Positions 150 through 49,661 of a stretch of 50,611 nt of DNA are shown piece by piece (position 1 is the stretch's first letter; every line of letters begins with the position of its first letter). Origin of the DNA: a virus (lineage: Duplodnaviria > Caudoviricetes). A program made the position numbers and the translations under genes. Location of the stretch: the IMG/VR virus record IMGVR_UViG_3300036466_000252, positions 1 through 50,611 of that record. The stretch is one strand, 5' to 3'. The notes beneath the pieces are model-generated. The model made no database searches, was not told the DNA's origin, and saw only the letters and a list, made by a program, of their open reading frames with translations.

Positions 150-815
150 CTAGCGTTGCGTGGTCAGTGCCTCCTCAAGCGCTGCCCTGAGCTGCTTGTC
201 CAGCTCCTTGCCTGCCACTGTGGCCGCCGTGCCCTTGAAGTCGTAGCGCTGCCGGTATTGCGGCGCACCCTGCACGAACAGGAAGGCGGGCTGCACCTTG
301 CTGCCCTTGCGCTGCCAGATACCCTCCTGCCCACCTGTGCCCGGTCGGCCTATGCGCCCAGCAAAGTAATCACCCCCCGGCCTTAGCCCGTCCACCACCT
401 TGGCCAGTGCAGCCCGGCTCACGTTGCCATGGCTATCCAGCCGCATACCGCTGGCAGGCACCGCATAGCTGCCAGCAGGCATCAGGCCGCGACCACGCAG
501 CATCCCTTCAGCAGCCTTGCCCCCACGCTTGGTGCCCTCCACTTGCGGCAGCAGGCGTTGTGCTGACTCGTCCCCGATGAAGACCACAGCGCTAGGCGTC
601 GGATCGCTTTTCTTGGCTGGCTGCACCCTGACGCTGTTGAGCGTCCACTTGGTCGGCCTGTCCAGTGACCGCTTCATGGTTTCCTGCTGCGCTTCCCGGA
701 TTTTCTGGGCGGTGCGTGTCAGCCCCAGCGCGGTGGCATACGGCGCTTGCTTGGCAGGCAGCTCGGACAGCTGCCCCATGACTTTGGCGATGTTGCTCTG
801 CACGTCGAATTTCAT
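150..815 (-). CDS. Putative gpZ/HK97-gp10-like tail completion protein, cos-proximal
   Basis: Basic 221-aa ORF with an 'ATALGLTRTAQKIREA...DRPTKWTLNS' N-terminus resembling proteins often found before cos in lambda-head prophages. No gpZ is evident in the tail cluster. Confidence 0.5.
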   Translation of the reverse strand: MKFDVQSNIAKVMGQLSELPAKQAPYATALGLTRTAQKIREAQQETMKRSLDRPTKWTLNSVRVQPAKKSDPTPSAVVFIGDESAQRLLPQVEGTKRGGKAAEGMLRGRGLMPAGSYAVPASGMRLDSHGNVSRAALAKVVDGLRPGGDYFAGRIGRPGTGGQEGIWQRKGSKVQPAFLFVQGAPQYRQRYDFKGTAATVAGKELDKQLRAALEEALTTQR

Positions 816-21001: not shown

Positions 21002-21391
21002 ATGAGCGAGCAGCAAGCAGCAAATATCAACAGCGCACCCCTCCGGGTGTCGGCAGCGCTGGGCGACTTCTTTACAGCCGCCCGCGACCCCAGCCACCCA
21101 TACCACGAAGTTGCCGATGTACTGGTCAGGGCATACACCCAAGCGGCTGCAGGCAAGGGGCATGACCGCCACGGCAAAGACGACATCCCGTTCCGCGACC
21201 AGCGCATGCAGACCATCGCGCAAGGTCAGGGCCACTCGGGCGGCATGGTCTACCAGATTTGCAAGAAGGCCGAGGAGGCCGAAGGTCTGCCGACACCGGC
21301 AGCCGTGCACGAATACCTCGGGTGCATTATCTACGCATGCGGCACCGTGCTTTTCCGTGAAACCCAAGCGAAGAAGGAGCAGAGCCAGTGA
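21002..21391 (+). CDS. Hypothetical phage protein
   Basis: Operon position; 'QAAAGKGHDRHG...PFRDQ' motif. Confidence 0.75.
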   Translation: MSEQQAANINSAPLRVSAALGDFFTAARDPSHPYHEVADVLVRAYTQAAAGKGHDRHGKDDIPFRDQRMQTIAQGQGHSGGMVYQICKKAEEAEGLPTPAAVHEYLGCIIYACGTVLFRETQAKKEQSQ

Positions 21392-22116
21392 ACCCGACAA
21401 GCTACCAGCAAGCCGCAATGCGCACCAACTCCGACACGGTAGGCACCTACGGCCGGGACAGCATCAACCTTGCGCACGCTGCGCTTGGTCTTTGCGATGA
21501 GGTTGCCGAGCTGCGGCAGGCGCTTGAGCGCCGTCCCTTCAATCCCACCAACTTCGCAGAAGAATGCGGCGACCTGCTGTGGTTTGTCGCCTTGGGGTTC
21601 GAGGGGCTGCATGTCGATTTTTGGGGAACGACTGATTATTACGTTGGCCGCTCTGGCGGGCATACCGCCACGCAGCTGCGCGACCTTGAGTCCCGCGCCA
21701 TGGCATTTGCCGCCACGGTCAAAGGTGCGTTCGCCTACGGCCGAGACGTCAATGACAGCCGGGCAACCATCCAGCTGGCAGAGATTGCCGAACTGGTGGC
21801 TGACATGCTGTCTGATTTCGGGCTGACGACCGAGCTTGCGATGCAGGCGAACATCAACAAACTGCAGGCGCGCTACCCTGAAAAGTTCAGCGCTGACCGG
21901 GCAAACCGCCGCGACTTGGCCGCCGAAGAGGCCGCGCTCGAGCTTGAGCCGGGGGCAATCGTCTGCACTACGCCAGACCATGCCGACATGGCCATCAGCC
22001 GCATGTGCGCTTACGACCAGCAGCCGCAGCGCCGCTTCGACAGCAAGCTCCGCCAGTGGGTCGTATGGCCCACCGCCAACATTGATGCAGACCGCCAGCA
22101 GGAGAAAGGGCAGTGA
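21388..22116 (+). CDS. MazG-like nucleoside triphosphate pyrophosphohydrolase
   Basis: 'ALGLCDEVAEL...EECGDLLWF' and 'NINKLQARYP'. Confidence 0.8.
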   Translation: MNPTSYQQAAMRTNSDTVGTYGRDSINLAHAALGLCDEVAELRQALERRPFNPTNFAEECGDLLWFVALGFEGLHVDFWGTTDYYVGRSGGHTATQLRDLESRAMAFAATVKGAFAYGRDVNDSRATIQLAEIAELVADMLSDFGLTTELAMQANINKLQARYPEKFSADRANRRDLAAEEAALELEPGAIVCTTPDHADMAISRMCAYDQQPQRRFDSKLRQWVVWPTANIDADRQQEKGQ

Positions 22117-44618: not shown

Positions 44619-46550
44619 TTACAGGTATGCGCTGTCACTTGTGCGGCGTTTCTTTGGCTGCATTGCCGAAAGGCTAAATCCATCGTCTTCGTCGTCGTCA
44701 CTGCTGGCGGCCGGCTTCGTGGCCATGGCCTCAAGCTCCGCGCGACGGTCAGCCCATGCGTCTTCATTCCAGCGGTCAATGCCCACCACGTAGGCCGCTG
44801 CCCGGTTGTAGACGTGGGTATCGAGCGCCTCGTTACGCAGGCGCGTTTGCTCCCACACGTATTTCCGGTATCCCTGCTTATCCACGCGCATGACCAGTTG
44901 TTCGGCAGTCAGCTGCTCGAAATACTCGGCATCGTATTGCGGGAAGTGGCAGTAGCCGTGCGGCACGTCCGCGCTTTCGTCCACTGGCATATCCTGCTTC
45001 AGCCAGCCGTATATTTCAGCCTTGACGTGGTTCGTGCCGATGTTCCATGCCTGCACCCCGCCCTTCACCTTGCGCCCCTTCCGGTTGACGTCCTTGAGGC
45101 GCGGGATGTTGATAACTTGCTGCTGCGTGGCGTTACCCATGACCGGGATGATCGTGCTGCGCGGGTAGCGGCGGCAGAAGTCATAGACCACCTGCGTATT
45201 GAAGCCCGCATCGACGGCCGTTAGCTGAATGCCAAGCTCTGCGCCATTCGCGTGGGTGAACTTCTCCCGCATAAGCGCAGCGAAGGCTTCCCAGCAGCCG
45301 CCCGGCTCATCAAGGGCTGACGTGTCGCCCGGCAGTACCCGGTAATCGACTGACCAATGCTCCATGCCCGGTGCCCACGCCATGACCTCGGCCTCGATGC
45401 GGTCTTTCTGCACGTCCGCCGCCATGGTCAGGATGATGCCGCCGTCTGGCACGGTGCCGATGGTGTAGGTTTCGCGGCGGTCATACAGCCTGCGCCACTC
45501 GGGCGCGTCGCCCTTCTCTGCCCATGTCTCGCCCAGCACGGTGTTCACGAACGCGCGGAGCTTCTCCGGGTTGCCCTGCGCCGCCATGAAGTCATCACGG
45601 GCATCGCTCCAGCTGTACCAGCCCAGCGGGCTGTAAAGGCTGTTCACGTGGAAGCCTACGGTGCCGGGCTTGCGGGCCTTGGCTGTGGCCCTGTATTCGC
45701 CCTTTGCCAGCATGCCGGTCTTCTCGTGCTCGTCTATCAGGACGCCGCATTCCTCGCACATGTACTGGGCGGGCTTGGTGGTGTCGTCCTTGTCATAGAC
45801 CACATTGCCCCAGCGCAAGGGCTGGTAGTGGTTACAGTGCGGGCAGGGCACGTAGTAGTAACGCTTGTCGGACTGCTCGAACCCGGCTTCGATCTTGCTG
45901 CGCCCGTGGAAGGTGGGCGTGCTGACGTAGAACAGCTTCCGGCGCTTGTACGTCCTCGCGCGCGCTCGAGCCAAGTCCAGCGGGTCGCCCTCGCCGTCAA
46001 GGTCGCCCGGGTAGGCGTCCACCTCGTCAAGGAACAGATAGCGGGCCGGCATAGAGCGCAGCCCGGTGGCGCTGTTGGCCCCGGTCAGGATCAGCACGCC
46101 GCCCGGGAAGTCCTTGCTGAATTGACTGTTGCCGCCGTCGCGGCTGCGGGCCGTCGCCACCTTCTCCGCCAGCCGGGGCGTCTCGGTGAGCATGGGGTCG
46201 ATACGGGTGCGCACGTTACGCTTCTGCATGTCCAACGTTGGCTGCACCGCCAGCATGGGGCCGGGGGCATTGTCGATCACGTAGCCGATCCAGTTGTTCC
46301 CGGTTTCAGTCGCGCCGATCTGGGCACCCTTCATGAACCAGACTTCTTGCGTAGGGCTGGTGACGCTCAATTCGTCCATGATCGCGCGCAGATAAGGCGT
46401 GCGGCTGGTCCGCCACTGGCCCGGCTCTGCCGCAGCGCGCTGCGATAACCTGCGGTGCTTATCGGCCCACTCGCTGACCGTCAGGATGGGGTCAGGGCGC
46501 AAGCCGCTGGAAAGCGCATCACCTACCGCTTGCGAGGCTTTCAAAAGCAT
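44619..46550 (-). CDS. terL: Terminase large subunit (lambda gpA family)
   Basis: 'RTPYL', 'KGAQIGATE', 'LFLDEVD', 'STPT', 'AADVQ', 'RNEALD'. Confidence 0.97.
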   Translation of the reverse strand: MLLKASQAVGDALSSGLRPDPILTVSEWADKHRRLSQRAAAEPGQWRTSRTPYLRAIMDELSVTSPTQEVWFMKGAQIGATETGNNWIGYVIDNAPGPMLAVQPTLDMQKRNVRTRIDPMLTETPRLAEKVATARSRDGGNSQFSKDFPGGVLILTGANSATGLRSMPARYLFLDEVDAYPGDLDGEGDPLDLARARARTYKRRKLFYVSTPTFHGRSKIEAGFEQSDKRYYYVPCPHCNHYQPLRWGNVVYDKDDTTKPAQYMCEECGVLIDEHEKTGMLAKGEYRATAKARKPGTVGFHVNSLYSPLGWYSWSDARDDFMAAQGNPEKLRAFVNTVLGETWAEKGDAPEWRRLYDRRETYTIGTVPDGGIILTMAADVQKDRIEAEVMAWAPGMEHWSVDYRVLPGDTSALDEPGGCWEAFAALMREKFTHANGAELGIQLTAVDAGFNTQVVYDFCRRYPRSTIIPVMGNATQQQVINIPRLKDVNRKGRKVKGGVQAWNIGTNHVKAEIYGWLKQDMPVDESADVPHGYCHFPQYDAEYFEQLTAEQLVMRVDKQGYRKYVWEQTRLRNEALDTHVYNRAAAYVVGIDRWNEDAWADRRAELEAMATKPAASSDDDEDDGFSLSAMQPKKRRTSDSAYL

Positions 46551-47139
46551 CAGCTATCTCCTCGAGCGCGTTGGTGATTTCCGTCTGAAGCATGAGCGCC
46601 ACGGCGTGCTGGTCGGTCATGCCCGCCAGCTCGCCCGACAGGCGGTCAGGCAGCTGCCCCAGCCTGTCACGCATGCCACGGGACGCATTGAACAACTCGA
46701 CCCGTAGATCGTCGCGGCGCACCAGCTCGCCGGCCTTTTCTTCGTAGTCCAGCTGCGCCAGCTTGGCCTGATAGGTTTCGCGCACGGTGCGCGCCTTCTG
46801 GTACTGCCCGGCACTGGTGTTGGCTGCGGACTGGTCAAGGCTGGCGGTAGACTCGCCCGCCAGCGCCCCACGCTGGTCATCAACGCCGCCAGTCTTGCCC
46901 CGGGGCGTGCCGATCTTATCCGCGCGCCGCTGGCCCGCTGCATGGTTCTTGCCCTGCATGGTGTTGTCGCGCCAGTGCTTGGCCGCGCGCTCATAATCCA
47001 GAATGACCGGCCGGCCGTTGGTCGGGTGCACCCCCACGCAATCAGCCGGGATGCGCCCGGTATTGATGGCCTTGCGCACGGCTACGCCTGACACGTCCAT
47101 GCGACGCCCCATTTCGCGCAATGAAATACCGTTTTCCAT
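46519..47139 (-). CDS. terS: Terminase small subunit (Nu1-like)
   Basis: N-terminal HTH 'VSGVAVRKAINTGRI' and 'AKLAQLDYEEKAGELV'; overlaps terL. Confidence 0.88.
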   Translation of the reverse strand: MENGISLREMGRRMDVSGVAVRKAINTGRIPADCVGVHPTNGRPVILDYERAAKHWRDNTMQGKNHAAGQRRADKIGTPRGKTGGVDDQRGALAGESTASLDQSAANTSAGQYQKARTVRETYQAKLAQLDYEEKAGELVRRDDLRVELFNASRGMRDRLGQLPDRLSGELAGMTDQHAVALMLQTEITNALEEIADAFESLASGR

Positions 47140-47205: not shown

Positions 47206-47433
47206 ATGCCCGTGAAAAAAATTGACACCCTGCGGGACTACATGAGCGCCGGCCAGTGGCATGAAGCCATCAAGCTGGCGGCCAAGTTCCCGCGCCTTGG
47301 CGAGCACAAAGTCGCCATCACCCGGGCCAAGGATGCCATCGTCAACCCGGGGTTCTGCAGGCAGCTGGGCCGCGACCCTGACGCGCTCATCGTCGCCGGG
47401 ATCGCGGCCCTGCAGGACCGTTATTCTTCTTGA
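47206..47433 (+). CDS. Small hypothetical protein, opposite strand within the late region
   Basis: GAGGA RBS; plausible 75-aa helical protein filling the terS-MTase gap. Confidence 0.7.
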   Translation: MPVKKIDTLRDYMSAGQWHEAIKLAAKFPRLGEHKVAITRAKDAIVNPGFCRQLGRDPDALIVAGIAALQDRYSS

Positions 47434-49661
47434 TCCTCGACGCCATCGACCGCGCCAAACTCGACGGGGCCGATGGCCTGCGTTGCCAGCTTCGCATCGC
47501 CCTTGACAAAAACGAGAATATTCTGATGGGTCTTGCCCATCTTGCGCCCGGCCTCGAACTGCTTGCCTGCACGTAGCGGCAGCGTCCCGGCCGGGGTCAC
47601 CAGAATTGCCTCGTTGTAGTAATGCAGGCCAGCCGCCCGGAAGGCCTCAACCGTGTCGCCCACGAAGTTGTAATAATGCCCCCGCTTATCCCTGACGTCG
47701 CCCACCACAAAGCACGCGAAACGGTTGTCTTTCAGCAAAGTGCACGTTTCGCGGATTATCTCGAAATATGCGTCCTTGAATTCCTCATATCCCAGCGTTG
47801 ACAGGTCGTTCGGGTCGTCGCTGTACACCTCAAGGTCAGCATACGGGGGGCAGCTGAATACCATGTCACCTTCGACGCCTGTTAGCGTTTGGGTAATGAA
47901 ACGGCTATCGGCATTGTGCCATGTCGGCTCGCCCACCGGGGCCGCAACCACCTCGCTGGCCCGGATGCCCACCACCCACAGCAGATCGCCATCCTGCAGG
48001 TGCGGCAGGCACTTCGCCTCATAGATCGGGTCAAGCCGCAGCCCGTGCAGGTCGGTCACCGGGGCGCTGTCGTGGTAGTCCAGTCCGCTTTCCACCAGCG
48101 TGACCATATCGCGCCAGTCAGCCGGGGCGTACTCGTCAAGCCTGCCCACGGGGTCAGCGCCCACCCGGACACCCACCACGGGCACATCAAGCCCGCGCTG
48201 CTTGAGGCCGTGCAGGATGCCCGCCAGTGACATGCCGCTGCCCACCGGGACCACGATGCGCTCAATGTCGTCTGGCAGGTTGGCCACCTGACCGGCAGTC
48301 GCGTGGATGGCAGCGTGGCACTCCATGCCAAATGGGATTTCCCGCCAGCCAGTCTCGGCAGCGTCTTCCCGGGCACGGGCGATGATGACGTTGTTGTAAC
48401 CGGCTTTGTGCTGGACCACCTCAGCGCCGGCCGCTTGGGCCATGCGCACCTCTGGCGACAGTTCGCCCTGCGGGGTGTGGACCCGGCACGGGATGCCCAG
48501 CTTGCGGGCCACCTGCGCCACGATGTTGACTTGCGGGCTTGACCGGCTGCCGGCAGTCACAAGCCCTTGCGCGCCCTGCGCCAGCGTCCAGCAAGTGCGG
48601 ACCTTGCCGCCGCGACCACCGCCCACACAGAACGCATCGTCGCGCTTGACGCGGTACGGGCCGCGATCCTCAACCGGGGTCAGGTCCGGCGTGTTGTCGT
48701 CCGCGAAGTCAGGCAGCGGGATTTCGATGCCGGACTTGTCGCGCATTTCCGCCCACTGCAGCCGGTTGGCCTCGACTTGTTCGGCGCGCAGCTCGCTGCC
48801 GTGGTAGTTGCGCCCCAGCTTGGCCGCCACAACGCCCCGGACACTGCCGCCAGCGAACGGGTCGATAATCGTGCCGCCCAGCGGGCAGAACCAGCGGTAG
48901 GCCAGCTCGGTCATTACCGGGTCAAAGACACTGCCGCCCTCGGCGTTACCCCGGCCGCTGAAATACTCGTACTTGCCTTCGCTGCTGTTGACCGTGGGCG
49001 TTGCCAGTCCGTCACGCCCCAGCTCGCTGCGGATACCCAGCGCCATCCATCCGCGCTTGCGCGCCTGCCACCAGCCATCACGGGCAGACAGGACGGTAAA
49101 CGGCGGCACGCCGAAGCGGTCACGCAGCGCCCCGACCTGCTTGGCCTGTTGCGGCTCTTCGTCGTCTTCGTCGTCTTCGTCTTCGTCGTGGTCACGGTCG
49201 CCCGGCGCGCCCTCGTTGTCGTCCAGTTCGCCCAGCAGGCCATCCAATTCGTCAGCGTCGAAGCCGGTCAGGTCAAGGTCAAAGCCGCTGGACTCGAGCG
49301 CCGCCAGCTCGCTGGCCAGCATTTCTTCATCCCAGCCGCCCAGCTCCGCCAGCTTGTTATTAGCCAGCACGTATGCCCGGCGCTGGTCTTCGGTCATGTG
49401 GGTGAGGGGCACCACCGGCACCTCGTCCATATTCAAGCGCTGCGCCGCCATCAGGCGGCCGTGCCCGGCAATGATTTCGCCGCTGGCCTCGTCCACCAGA
49501 ATCGGATTATTGAAACCCATTTCGGTGATGCTGGCGGCGATCTTCGCCACCTGCACCGCGTCATGGGTCTTCGCGTTGCGGGCGTAGGGCATGAGCCGCT
49601 CAAGCGGCCAGTGTTCAATCTTGTTGGCCATCTGCGGCCGGAATGTGCGGGGTGCGTTCAT
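47421..49661 (-). CDS. ParB/Srx - DNA amino-methyltransferase fusion with an inserted fold-type-II PLP-dependent domain
   Basis: ParB 'PYARNAKTH...GFNNPILVD...IIAGHGRL'; MTase motif I 'IIDPFAGGS' and motif IV 'FSCPPY'; between them PLP motifs 'TPV...VKRDD...GGKVR' and 'VPVGSGMS'. Confidence 0.85.
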   Translation of the reverse strand: MNAPRTFRPQMANKIEHWPLERLMPYARNAKTHDAVQVAKIAASITEMGFNNPILVDEASGEIIAGHGRLMAAQRLNMDEVPVVPLTHMTEDQRRAYVLANNKLAELGGWDEEMLASELAALESSGFDLDLTGFDADELDGLLGELDDNEGAPGDRDHDEDEDDEDDEEPQQAKQVGALRDRFGVPPFTVLSARDGWWQARKRGWMALGIRSELGRDGLATPTVNSSEGKYEYFSGRGNAEGGSVFDPVMTELAYRWFCPLGGTIIDPFAGGSVRGVVAAKLGRNYHGSELRAEQVEANRLQWAEMRDKSGIEIPLPDFADDNTPDLTPVEDRGPYRVKRDDAFCVGGGRGGKVRTCWTLAQGAQGLVTAGSRSSPQVNIVAQVARKLGIPCRVHTPQGELSPEVRMAQAAGAEVVQHKAGYNNVIIARAREDAAETGWREIPFGMECHAAIHATAGQVANLPDDIERIVVPVGSGMSLAGILHGLKQRGLDVPVVGVRVGADPVGRLDEYAPADWRDMVTLVESGLDYHDSAPVTDLHGLRLDPIYEAKCLPHLQDGDLLWVVGIRASEVVAAPVGEPTWHNADSRFITQTLTGVEGDMVFSCPPYADLEVYSDDPNDLSTLGYEEFKDAYFEIIRETCTLLKDNRFACFVVGDVRDKRGHYYNFVGDTVEAFRAAGLHYYNEAILVTPAGTLPLRAGKQFEAGRKMGKTHQNILVFVKGDAKLATQAIGPVEFGAVDGVEDQEE

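What the first reader, a model, noticed from the sequence alone, without database searches (positions are those of the whole stretch)
47421..49661. ParB-methyltransferase with a complete PLP enzyme nested inside the MTase: candidate new DNA-modification chemistry
Seen: the domain order is ParB/Srx (aa ~15-130), acidic linker, MTase N-half with SAM-binding motif I (IIDPFAGGS, ~aa 265), an ~245-aa insert (~47960-48693), then the MTase C-half with motif IV FSCPPY (~aa 600). The insert has fold-type-II PLP hallmarks of the ACC deaminase/D-cysteine desulfhydrase class: TPV...VKRDD...GGK with the putative Schiff-base Lys at 48603-48605, and the VGSGMS phosphate loop. Both sets of motifs look intact. 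Known: ParB-MTase genes often sit beside terminase, and PLP-dependent decarboxylases act on amino-acid-modified bases in ViI/M6-type thymidine hypermodification. I see no dUMP hydroxymethylase, hmU kinase, amino-acid:DNA transferase or DNA polymerase here, so that pathway cannot supply the substrate. Inference: one polypeptide couples SAM-dependent transfer to a base with PLP chemistry, for example aminocarboxypropyl transfer followed by decarboxylation or deamination. ParB may link this to packaging as anti-restriction protection.
Basis: partly seen in the sequence, partly recalled or inferred. Interest (0 to 1): 0.9.

Follow-up and report, generated by a model that had tools for sequence, protein, structure and literature searches.

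The report
Phage ParB-methyltransferase with nested PLP enzyme
A phage gene beside the DNA-packaging genes joins a DNA-methyltransferase-type enzyme to an apparently active vitamin-B6 (PLP) enzyme related to phage enzymes that trim amino acids attached to DNA, so it may make an undescribed DNA modification, but this is untested.

Summary
ORF 47421-49661 (-) encodes 746 aa in this order: ParB-like domain, acidic linker, MTase motif-I half, a 250-aa fold-type-II PLP domain, then the MTase motif-IV half (FSCPPY).

The PLP lysine (K353, codon 48603-48605) and phosphate loop are invariant in 66 aligned homologues. The PLP part is the best conserved stretch.

Nesting is not essential. Among 150 cluster representatives carrying this PLP domain, it lies inside the MTase in 82, at its C-terminus in 21 and at its N-terminus in 5. 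Fifteen are stand-alone proteins of 244-285 aa. In other phage contigs a more divergent PLP gene is translationally coupled to the MTase gene.

The closest characterised relatives of the PLP domain are ViI gp226 and M6 gp52. These are PLP decarboxylases that act on amino-acid-base conjugates in DNA. This complete phage genome has no hydroxymethyl-uracil pathway.

My best reading (about 0.4) is that the MTase-fold domain transfers the aminocarboxypropyl part of SAM to a base and the PLP domain decarboxylates it. Plain methylation with an unrelated PLP role is not excluded.

Seven full-text searches found no description of this architecture. Earlier reports of this scan found it on other genomes.

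The parts
47421..49661 (-). Whole ORF, 746 aa (P0001). The gene call on record starts at M11 (ATG 49629-49631) and gives 736 aa.
49218..49622 (-). ParB/Srx-like N-terminal domain (aa 14-148), with AGHGR at aa 65-69
   Evidence: Pfam ParB_N 23.4 bits, below the 26.3 cut-off. phrog_15396 4.5e-65 and phrog_620 1.9e-56. pLDDT above 90.
49134..49217 (-). Acidic, disordered linker (aa 149-176)
   Evidence: Sequence. pLDDT below 50 for aa 149-176.
48726..49130 (-). MTase-fold N-part (aa 178-312) with SAM motif I TIIDPFAGGS at 48843-48872
   Evidence: Pfam N6_N4_Mtase aa 259-298 matches profile positions 179-218. 2zie alignment. D267, F269, G271 and G272 are invariant in 66 sequences.
47937..48698 (-). 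Fold-type-II PLP domain (aa 322-575). Lys353 codon is 48603-48605, phosphate loop GSGMS is 48228-48242, LDPIYEAK is 48012-48035.
   Evidence: PALP 1.2e-18. phrog_3650 2.8e-39. 1j0a Z 24.6. K353, G474-M477, D544, Y547, E548 and K550 are invariant in 66 sequences.
47457..47933 (-). MTase-fold C-part (aa 577-735) with motif IV FSCPPY at 47841-47858
   Evidence: 2zie alignment of query 577-662. phrog_498 1.1e-137 spans 239-735 and skips the insert. C604, P605, P606 and Y607 are invariant in 66 sequences.
47206..47433 (+). 75-aa gene on the opposite strand between the MTase gene and TerS. It overlaps the MTase stop by 13 bases. Function unknown.
   Evidence: phrog_18237 1.9e-16
46519..47139 (-). 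Terminase small subunit, directly downstream
   Evidence: phrog_57 1.4e-29
44619..46550 (-). Terminase large subunit (lambda gpA type)
   Evidence: GpA_ATPase 2.4e-95 and GpA_nuclease 2.6e-84

Best explanation
The gene encodes a two-step, post-replicative DNA-modifying enzyme of a widespread, uncharacterised phage family. Shown: a SAM-binding amino-methyltransferase-fold domain (motif I DPFAGGS, motif IV CPPY) and a fold-type-II PLP domain that keeps its key residues are fused in this polypeptide. The two are also linked, in several arrangements, in many other phage contigs and metagenome proteins. Shown: the PLP domain's nearest characterised relatives decarboxylate amino-acid-base conjugates in DNA. 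Inferred: the only amino-acid moiety an MTase-fold enzyme has at hand is the 3-amino-3-carboxypropyl (acp) part of SAM. I therefore propose that the MTase-fold domain flips out a base and alkylates it with acp, releasing methylthioadenosine. The PLP domain would then form an aldimine with the acp alpha-amine through K353 and remove CO2, leaving a cationic 3-aminopropyl base. The target atom is unknown. It could be an exocyclic amine, as in (D/N/S)PPY enzymes. It could also be C5 of a pyrimidine if the invariant Cys of CPPY acts as a nucleophile. Inferred: the ParB domain brings the enzyme to phage DNA. Expression next to the terminase genes would time the modification to late infection, and the product would protect the DNA from host nucleases.
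For: 1) PLP residues. K353, the GSGM loop and D544, Y547, E548 and K550 are invariant in 66 aligned homologues, and the PLP part is the best conserved stretch of the protein. Among 150 cluster representatives, 144 keep the Lys motif, 142 the loop and 147 the YE.K motif. 2) Relatives of the PLP domain. phrog_3650 contains ViI gp226 (gp226 scores 2.5e-241) and matches the insert at 2.8e-39, 136 bits. phrog_7093 contains M6 gp52 and matches at 3e-13. BLASTP to gp226 gives 27% identity, E 1e-10, with K353 aligned to K92. hhalign gives 97.5% probability. By contrast, every cellular NCBIfam model scores 29.5 bits or less, against cut-offs of 266 or more. Lee et al. 2021 (PMC8989533, passages read) show gp226 and gp52 are PLP decarboxylases acting on DNA-borne amino acids. 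They name K92 as the likely aldimine lysine, and they report natural fusions of such PLP enzymes with the kinase and the transferase of the same pathway. 3) Coupling to the MTase. Of 150 representatives carrying this PLP domain, 82 are nested, 21 C-terminal and 5 N-terminal to the MTase; 10 more carry only part of the MTase; 32 have no MTase part, and 15 of those are 244-285 aa. Of 80 IMG/VR loci, 25 are fused and 21 have a separate PLP gene in the fetched flank, with start and stop overlapping in at least 8 loci. 4) No alternative source of an amino-acid adduct. The record is rated complete and has no Thymidylat_synt, AADT or 5-hmU kinase match. About 45 ORFs scanned against Pfam or PHROGs show no other modification gene. 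5) The two MTase halves model as one Rossmann domain around the insert.
Against: No result here shows acp transfer. As far as I recall, (D/N/S)PPY-type enzymes are known as methyltransferases only. MTases without PLP are very close relatives. L079 (no PLP gene) and L086 (PLP gene) are nearly identical in the MTase C-part. The window's C-part is 75% identical to that of L070, which has no PLP in 6 kb downstream. The label changes at least 15 times on a poorly resolved tree. The MTase therefore works alone, which fits plain methylation equally well. Identity to gp226 is only 27%, and the phrog_3650 match covers profile positions 19-240 of 392. Reaction type cannot be read from a fold-type-II sequence, and the closest solved folds are lyases/deaminases. 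The single case of a SAM-decarboxylase-family gene beside a PLP-less relative did not recur in 80 loci.
Confidence: 0.4

Rival explanations
1. The MTase domain is an ordinary orphan N6-adenine, N4-cytosine or N2-guanine methyltransferase that protects phage DNA. The PLP domain does an unrelated or auxiliary job on a small molecule. Examples are removing S-adenosylhomocysteine or another sulfur amino acid, or acting as a deaminase/desulfhydrase like its structural neighbours.
For: The protein belongs to phrog_498 'DNA methyltransferase' (1.1e-137) and passes the Pfam N6_N4_Mtase cut-off. Near-identical MTases occur without PLP. The closest solved folds are D-cysteine desulfhydrase and ACC deaminase. 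A ParB-methylase of Bacillus cereus is reported as an adenine methylase with nicking activity (a passage in Iyer et al. 2017, PMC5512222; the primary paper is not held).
Against: A metabolic side-activity does not explain why this PLP subfamily is attached to this MTase in 118 of 150 representatives in three different topologies (108 with both MTase halves). It also does not explain the translational coupling. The PLP domain is closer to DNA-acting decarboxylases than to any cellular enzyme model. Motif IV carries an invariant Cys instead of D/N/S.
Confidence: 0.3
2. PLP acts first. The PLP domain alters SAM itself, for example by decarboxylating it. The MTase-fold domain then transfers the aminopropyl group to a base, as spermidine synthase does to putrescine. 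The end product is the same as in the best explanation.
For: In Croceibacter phage P2559S, a PLP-less family member with SCPPY overlaps a gene that passes the Pfam AdoMet_dc cut-off (70.3 bits against 25). That gene could play the same role there.
Against: This is one case only: 0 of 80 loci have a homologue of that gene. Most of the 142 phage records with a homologue are cyanophages. A 2023 paper, seen as a search listing only (PMC10407285), reports that diverse phages encode homologues that decarboxylate ornithine or arginine instead. The relatives gp226 and gp52 act on DNA-borne substrates. PLP-less MTases would then need dcSAM from the host.
Confidence: 0.1
3. The PLP domain generates an aminoacrylate from serine, cysteine or a similar amino acid and adds it to the flipped base (beta-replacement). 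The MTase-fold domain serves mainly as the base-flipping module.
For: Many fold-type-II relatives listed by structure are beta-replacement enzymes, such as cysteine synthases, tryptophan synthase beta and SbnA (Z 19-20).
Against: The SAM-binding motif I is invariant, which argues that SAM is used. The nearest sequence relatives are decarboxylases, not synthases.
Confidence: 0.07
4. The PLP domain is catalytically dead and serves as a target-recognition or scaffold domain in the place where alpha-class MTases carry their recognition domain.
For: It sits between motif I and motif IV, which is where alpha-class enzymes have the central recognition domain (class definitions in Murray et al. 2018, PMC5778455).
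Against: The Schiff-base Lys, the phosphate loop and YE.K are invariant or kept in 142-147 of 150 representatives. The domain also occurs at either terminus and as a separate protein.
Confidence: 0.03

Closest known systems
Salmonella phage ViI gp226 (YP_004327553) and Pseudomonas phage M6 gp52 (YP_001294560): PLP-dependent decarboxylases of thymidine hypermodification (Lee et al. 2021, PMC8989533)
   Same: Same fold-type-II PLP lineage. phrog_3650 matches at 2.8e-39 and phrog_7093 at 3e-13. The aldimine Lys is aligned (K353 with gp226 K92). The KR(D/E)D, phosphate-loop and YE.K motifs are shared. Both are phage enzymes, and the known ones act on DNA.
   Different: Identity is only 24-27%. There is no 5-hmU kinase, amino-acid:DNA transferase or dUMP hydroxymethylase in this genome. 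Here the partner is a SAM-dependent MTase-fold domain, so the substrate cannot be O-serinyl- or glycinyl-thymidine.
Phage ParB-N6_N4 methyltransferase fusions (phrog_498; noted as phage-enriched in the ParB-fold survey PMC12704722; B. cereus Bce_0392 ParB-methylase as cited in PMC5512222)
   Same: ParB domain plus MTase, with motif I before motif IV, FAGGS and SCPPY, placed next to the terminase. The window's MTase C-part is 75% identical to that of a PLP-less member.
   Different: This member carries a 250-aa PLP enzyme between the halves. The survey's main text has 0 mentions of PLP or pyridoxal (supplements not seen). I could not check whether Bce_0392 is of the same permuted type.
D-cysteine desulfhydrase (4d8t/4d97) and ACC-deaminase homologue (1j0a)
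   Same: Best solved-structure matches of the insert (Z 24.1-24.6; profile E 3.8e-11 with KRDD..GG(N)K..R and DPvY.gK aligned).
   Different: About 22-24% identity, and about 70 residues shorter. NCBIfam models for these enzymes score 14.7-25.1 bits against cut-offs of 289-392. It is not a member of those enzyme families.
aTrm11 / TrmN / Trm14 (m2G RNA methyltransferases)
   Same: Best structural matches of the MTase domain that share its motif order (Z 17.8-18.4, 179-182 residues over model range 180..724).
   Different: 13-18% identity, RNA substrates, and no insert.
SAM-dependent aminocarboxypropyl and aminopropyl transferases (Tyw2, Tsr3, TapT, spermidine synthase)
   Same: The proposed chemistry: the acp or aminopropyl part of SAM or dcSAM is given to a nucleobase or an amine. 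Papers on Tsr3 and TapT were seen as search listings only; the rest is recalled.
   Different: No sequence relation was tested or claimed. All known nucleic-acid substrates are RNA, and none is coupled to a PLP enzyme.

Membership tests
Amino-methyltransferases, Pfam N6_N4_Mtase (PF01555) | Profile match above the curated cut-off | tested here: met
   41.4 bits against 26.7
Amino-methyltransferases, Pfam N6_N4_Mtase (PF01555) | SAM-binding motif I, FxGxG type | tested here: met
   DPFAGGS at aa 267-273, aligned with motif I of 2zie. Invariant in 66 sequences.
Amino-methyltransferases, Pfam N6_N4_Mtase (PF01555) | Catalytic motif IV (D/N/S)PP(Y/F/W) | tested here: not met
   The motif is CPPY. 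Cys604 aligns with the Ser of SPPY in 2zie and is invariant in 66 sequences. PPY is kept.
Amino-methyltransferases, Pfam N6_N4_Mtase (PF01555) | Beta-class order (motif IV, recognition domain, motif I) | tested here: not met
   The order is motif I, insert, motif IV. Class definitions are from PMC5778455.
Amino-methyltransferases, Pfam N6_N4_Mtase (PF01555) | Methyl transfer to an exocyclic amine of DNA | not testable with these tools
   Needs biochemistry.
Fold-type-II PLP enzymes (Pfam PALP, PF00291) | Profile match above the cut-off, and the fold | tested here: met
   67.9 bits against 35. 1j0a Z 24.6 over 252 residues. Foldseek E 3.1e-11.
Fold-type-II PLP enzymes (Pfam PALP, PF00291) | Schiff-base lysine and Gly-rich phosphate loop | tested here: met
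   K353 aligns with gp226 K92 and with the GGNK Lys of 4d8t. GSGMS aligns with the loop of 4d8t and 2rkb. All are invariant.
Fold-type-II PLP enzymes (Pfam PALP, PF00291) | Binds PLP | not testable with these tools
   Needs purified protein.
ViI gp226 / M6 gp52-type DNA amino-acid decarboxylases (phrog_3650, phrog_7093) | Sequence membership | tested here: inconclusive
   phrog_3650 matches at 2.8e-39 but covers only profile positions 19-240 of 392. phrog_7093 matches at 3e-13. Identity is 24-27%. A relative, not clearly a member.
ViI gp226 / M6 gp52-type DNA amino-acid decarboxylases (phrog_3650, phrog_7093) | Co-occurrence with 5-hmU DNA kinase, amino-acid:DNA transferase and dUMP hydroxymethylase | tested here: not met
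   0 matches in a record rated 100% complete.
ViI gp226 / M6 gp52-type DNA amino-acid decarboxylases (phrog_3650, phrog_7093) | Decarboxylation of an amino acid borne on a DNA base | not testable with these tools
   Needs LC-MS of the products.
ACC deaminase / D-cysteine desulfhydrase (TIGR01274, TIGR01275, PRK03910) | Score above the curated cut-off | tested here: not met
   14.7 against 392; 25.1 against 289.4; 23.1 against 469.
ParB/Srx N-terminal domain | Profile match and GxxR box | tested here: met
   Pfam scores 23.4 against 26.3, just below the cut-off. phrog_15396 matches at 4.5e-65 and TIGR00180 at 9.4e-07. AGHGR is at aa 65-69, with G66 invariant.
Chromosomal or plasmid partition ParB | Helix-turn-helix and C-terminal dimerisation domains | tested here: not met
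   The protein continues into the linker and the MTase. Whether a ParA partner is encoded in the window was not searched for.
Phage ParB-MTase, phrog_498 | Profile match over both MTase halves | tested here: met
   1.1e-137. The best stretch, aa 239-735, maps to profile positions 356-611, so the profile lacks the insert.

The most novel reading that the evidence does not exclude
This family performs the first known transfer of the aminocarboxypropyl part of SAM to DNA, followed by on-DNA PLP decarboxylation. The result would be a 3-aminopropyl purine or pyrimidine. That would be a hypermodification route independent of 5-hydroxymethyl-uracil. PLP-less relatives would leave the carboxylated (acp) base, and the invariant Cys of CPPY might direct alkylation to C5 of a pyrimidine.
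Probability: 0.35. Interest if true: 0.9.

Novelty: new variant of a known kind. Interest (0 to 1): 0.72.

Why it matters
The post-replicative amino-acid-derived DNA hypermodifications described in the papers read here all start from 5-hydroxymethyl-uracil and need a kinase and a dedicated transferase. A SAM-plus-PLP route would add a second, compact way to decorate DNA with a charged side chain: one gene, portable between phages.

The family is widespread. 398 clusters at 50% identity match the PLP domain at E 1e-30 or better, and it occurs in cultured phages of cyanobacteria, Erythrobacter and mycobacteria. A new base made by it would therefore affect how phage DNA behaves towards restriction enzymes, CRISPR nucleases, sequencing chemistries and cloning. 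It would also give a new enzyme for site-independent DNA labelling.

If it turns out to be plain methylation, the reason for the persistent PLP partnership is still an open question.

Tried and rejected
1. M.EcoGII as a characterised relative: rejected. The paper (PMC5778455, passages read) describes a canonical beta-class enzyme of 349 aa, and the word ParB does not occur in it. My recollection was wrong.

2. A SAM-decarboxylase neighbour as independent support for aminopropyl transfer. It is a real Pfam AdoMet_dc match in Croceibacter phage P2559S. However, 0 of 80 IMG/VR loci have a homologue by phmmer, and most of the 142 phage records with a homologue are cyanophages. I kept it only as an anecdote.

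3. PLP-linked MTases as one clade. The tree of the 159-column MTase C-part (81 rows, quick method) is poorly resolved: 39 of 73 inner branches are open. The labels are intermixed with at least 15 changes, while well-supported branches force only 1. No conclusion on origins is drawn.

4. Complex prediction on a separate-gene pair (MTase residues 160-476 and the PLP protein of L081, with SAM and PLP riding along) gave 'no answer': median score 0.42, and one control scored 0.47. It counts neither for nor against binding.

5. Distance between the two active sites could not be measured, because model coordinates are not given to the script machine.

6. Foldseek against viral models only returned the same family and ParB proteins.

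7. Literature. Seven searches found no paper on a ParB-MTase-PLP protein or on acp/aminopropyl DNA bases. The search for vB_EliS_R6L did not return the phage's own description. Xu et al. 2012 (PMC3256598) is not held. Supplements were closed and may list such fusions (PMC12704722, PMC8989533).


Full report
**What is there.** The window is a whole virus record of 50,611 bases that CheckV rates 100% complete. ORF 47421..49661 on the minus strand encodes 746 aa. The gene call on record starts ten residues later (P0002, 736 aa).

Pfam finds three families:
- PALP at aa 361-509, E 1.2e-18, 67.9 bits, cut-off 35.
- N6_N4_Mtase at aa 259-298, matching the C-terminal motif-I part of the profile, 41.4 bits, cut-off 26.7.
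- ParB_N at aa 31-92, 23.4 bits, just under the cut-off. ParB PHROGs match at 4.5e-65.

phmmer against solved structures aligns aa 577-662 with the SPPY region (residues 20-106) of the Thermus methylase 2zie. It aligns aa 245-300 with that chain's motif-I region (219-274). The order is therefore motif I, insert, motif IV. This is the reverse of the beta class and like the alpha class, as those classes are defined in Murray et al. 2018.

The gene is followed by a 75-aa opposite-strand gene (phrog_18237), then the terminase small subunit (phrog_57) and the gpA-type large subunit.

**Structure.** An AlphaFold2 model built on 66 homologues has mean pLDDT 87.6 and pTM 0.71. Only the acidic linker (149-176), a loop (221-242) and the ends are disordered.

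VIA-align 2 against 48,161 chains matches aa 322-575 to three structures:
- ACC-deaminase homologue 1j0a: Z 24.6, 252 residues, rmsd 3.0.
- D-cysteine desulfhydrase 4d97: Z 24.1.
- ACC deaminase 1rqx: Z 23.1.

It matches model range 180..720 to the m2G RNA methyltransferases aTrm11 (5e72) and TrmN (3tma), Z 18.4 each with 181-182 residues aligned. The two MTase halves thus close into one Rossmann domain around the insert. Foldseek agrees for the PLP part.

**Conservation.** In 66 nested homologues (50-70% identical) the following residues are invariant:
- K353, R355, S375 and Q377.
- G474-S475-G476-M477.
- D544, Y547, E548 and K550.
- D267, F269, G271 and G272 (motif I).
- C604, P605, P606 and Y607 (motif IV).

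In a 120-row alignment the PLP part is the best conserved stretch. The first residue of motif IV is Cys, not D/N/S, and it aligns with the Ser of SPPY in 2zie.

**How widespread, and in what forms.** The full protein has 3851 hits at E 0.001 or better among 8000 scored candidates. Of P0001 plus the 119 listed homologues, 99 are ParB-MTase(I)-PLP-MTase(IV), 6 are the same without ParB, and 15 carry a contiguous MTase followed by the PLP domain.

The PLP domain alone finds 999 clusters at 50% identity with E 0.001 or better, and 398 at 1e-30 or better. The best 150 divide as follows:
- 82 nested.
- 21 with the PLP domain C-terminal to the MTase.
- 5 with it N-terminal.
- 10 partial.
- 32 PLP only, of which 15 are 244-285 aa.

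Those stand-alone proteins begin and end exactly where the insert does.

Of 80 IMG/VR loci, 25 are fused (one with a divergent insert), 21 have a separate PLP gene and 34 have none in the fetched flank. Six of those 34 have under 1 kb downstream. Most separate PLP genes lie directly downstream, with start and stop overlapping. They form a second, more divergent subfamily that also keeps its Lys and GSG loop.

Cultured phages carrying the fusion include Pseudanabaena phage Pam4, Erythrobacter phages vB_EliS_R6L and ZS04, and Mycobacterium phages Vincenzo and AlanGrant. In the mycobacteriophages the region is annotated as two overlapping genes just before the terminase.

**What the PLP domain is related to.** Cellular enzyme models score far below their cut-offs: 29.5 bits or less against cut-offs of 266 or more. 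The best families are phage ones: phrog_3650 at 2.8e-39 (136 bits) and phrog_7093 at 3e-13.

I fetched ViI gp226 and M6 gp52. They are members of these two PHROGs, at 2.5e-241 and 2.2e-159. BLASTP to gp226 gives 27% identity and E 1e-10, with K353 aligned to K92. hhalign of the stand-alone alignment against gp226 gives 97.5% probability.

Lee et al. 2021 (passages read) show that both proteins are PLP-dependent decarboxylases acting on amino-acid-base conjugates in DNA. They name K92 as the likely aldimine lysine. They note that gp226 threads on 1j0a. They also report natural fusions of such PLP enzymes with the kinase and the transferase of the same pathway.

**What is absent.** The record has no match to Thymidylat_synt (the control rang in 10 of 14 genomes), ViI gp247 or M6 gp54. 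About 45 ORFs scanned against Pfam or PHROGs show replication, recombination, lysis and structural genes but no other modification enzyme.

**Reading.** The repeated joining of this PLP subfamily to this MTase in three topologies, and as coupled genes, argues that the two act in one pathway. The PLP lineage is known to decarboxylate DNA-borne amino acids. The only amino-acid moiety an MTase-fold enzyme holds is the aminocarboxypropyl part of SAM.

I therefore favour acp transfer to a flipped base followed by PLP decarboxylation to a 3-aminopropyl base (confidence 0.4). PLP-less relatives that are nearly identical in the MTase part (L079 against L086; the window against L070 at 75%) show that the MTase works alone and that the PLP step is an add-on. 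This fits tailoring of the MTase product, but it fits plain methylation with an unrelated PLP role equally well (0.3). Other rivals are PLP acting on SAM first (0.1), beta-replacement onto the base (0.07) and a dead scaffold domain (0.03).

The nested position is simply the linker between the motif-III and motif-IV parts. In contiguous relatives, motifs I and IV are about 72 residues apart.

**Novelty.** Seven full-text searches found no description of this architecture or of acp/aminopropyl DNA bases. The 2025 survey of ParB-fold fusions notes phage ParB-N6_N4 MTase fusions, but its main text does not mention PLP. Deposited phage records name the gene generically.

Earlier reports of this scan reached the same reading on other genomes. 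Here I re-tested their key claim about gp226 and gp52. I added the N-terminal and stand-alone forms, the PLP-less near-twins, the invariant Cys of motif IV and the Trm11-like fold.

Noticed in passing
window 47206-47433 (+): A 75-aa gene on the opposite strand between the MTase gene and the small terminase gene. It overlaps the MTase stop by 13 bases and matches phrog_18237 (unknown function, 1.9e-16). An earlier scan note (e1-6095998) describes a 68-aa counter-oriented gene at a related locus.
   Followed up: partly
L003 3512-5153 (Croceibacter phage P2559S): A PLP-less member of the MTase family (SCPPY) overlaps a 106-aa gene that passes the Pfam AdoMet_dc cut-off (70.3 bits). It did not recur in 80 IMG/VR loci.
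   Followed up: yes
L031, L043, L056, L061, L067, L071, L074, L080-L084, L086 (alignment A4): A second, more divergent PLP subfamily of about 234 aa sits downstream of contiguous MTase genes, with overlapping stop and start in most. It has invariant VRDD, GG.K, GSG and PxPS...YD.K.
   Followed up: partly
L025; proteins P0027, P0031, P0065, P0111, P0028, P0034: Some family members carry extra stretches. Examples are about 190-450 aa between the PLP domain and MTase motif IV, additional class-I methyltransferase Pfam domains at the N-terminus (P0111, 1306 aa), and PF11307. These were not examined.
   Followed up: no
L002 1-2275 (Mycobacterium phage Vincenzo): The homologous region is annotated as two overlapping genes, 'ParB-like partition protein' 1-1440 and 'carboxylate deaminase' 1406-2275. 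It matches in three pieces directly upstream of the terminase genes. This could be a true split or a frameshift.
   Followed up: no
L027 1944-4289: A nested insert of about 250 aa matches the PLP profile only weakly (E 1.8e-4). This suggests strongly diverged inserts exist. The Erythrobacter phage inserts are similarly distant, at about 30% identity.
   Followed up: partly
window 21388-22116 (+): A weak MazG-like match (20.7 bits, below the cut-off of 22) lies in the early region next to SSB and a VRR-NUC nuclease.
   Followed up: no
phage records H35, H37, H41-H44: Large phages carry stand-alone relatives of the PLP domain at 27-34% identity: Staphylococcus Alsa_1, Pseudomonas Cygsa01, Vibrio 207E48.1 and Aeromonas phiA8-29. 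Their gene contexts were not inspected.
   Followed up: no
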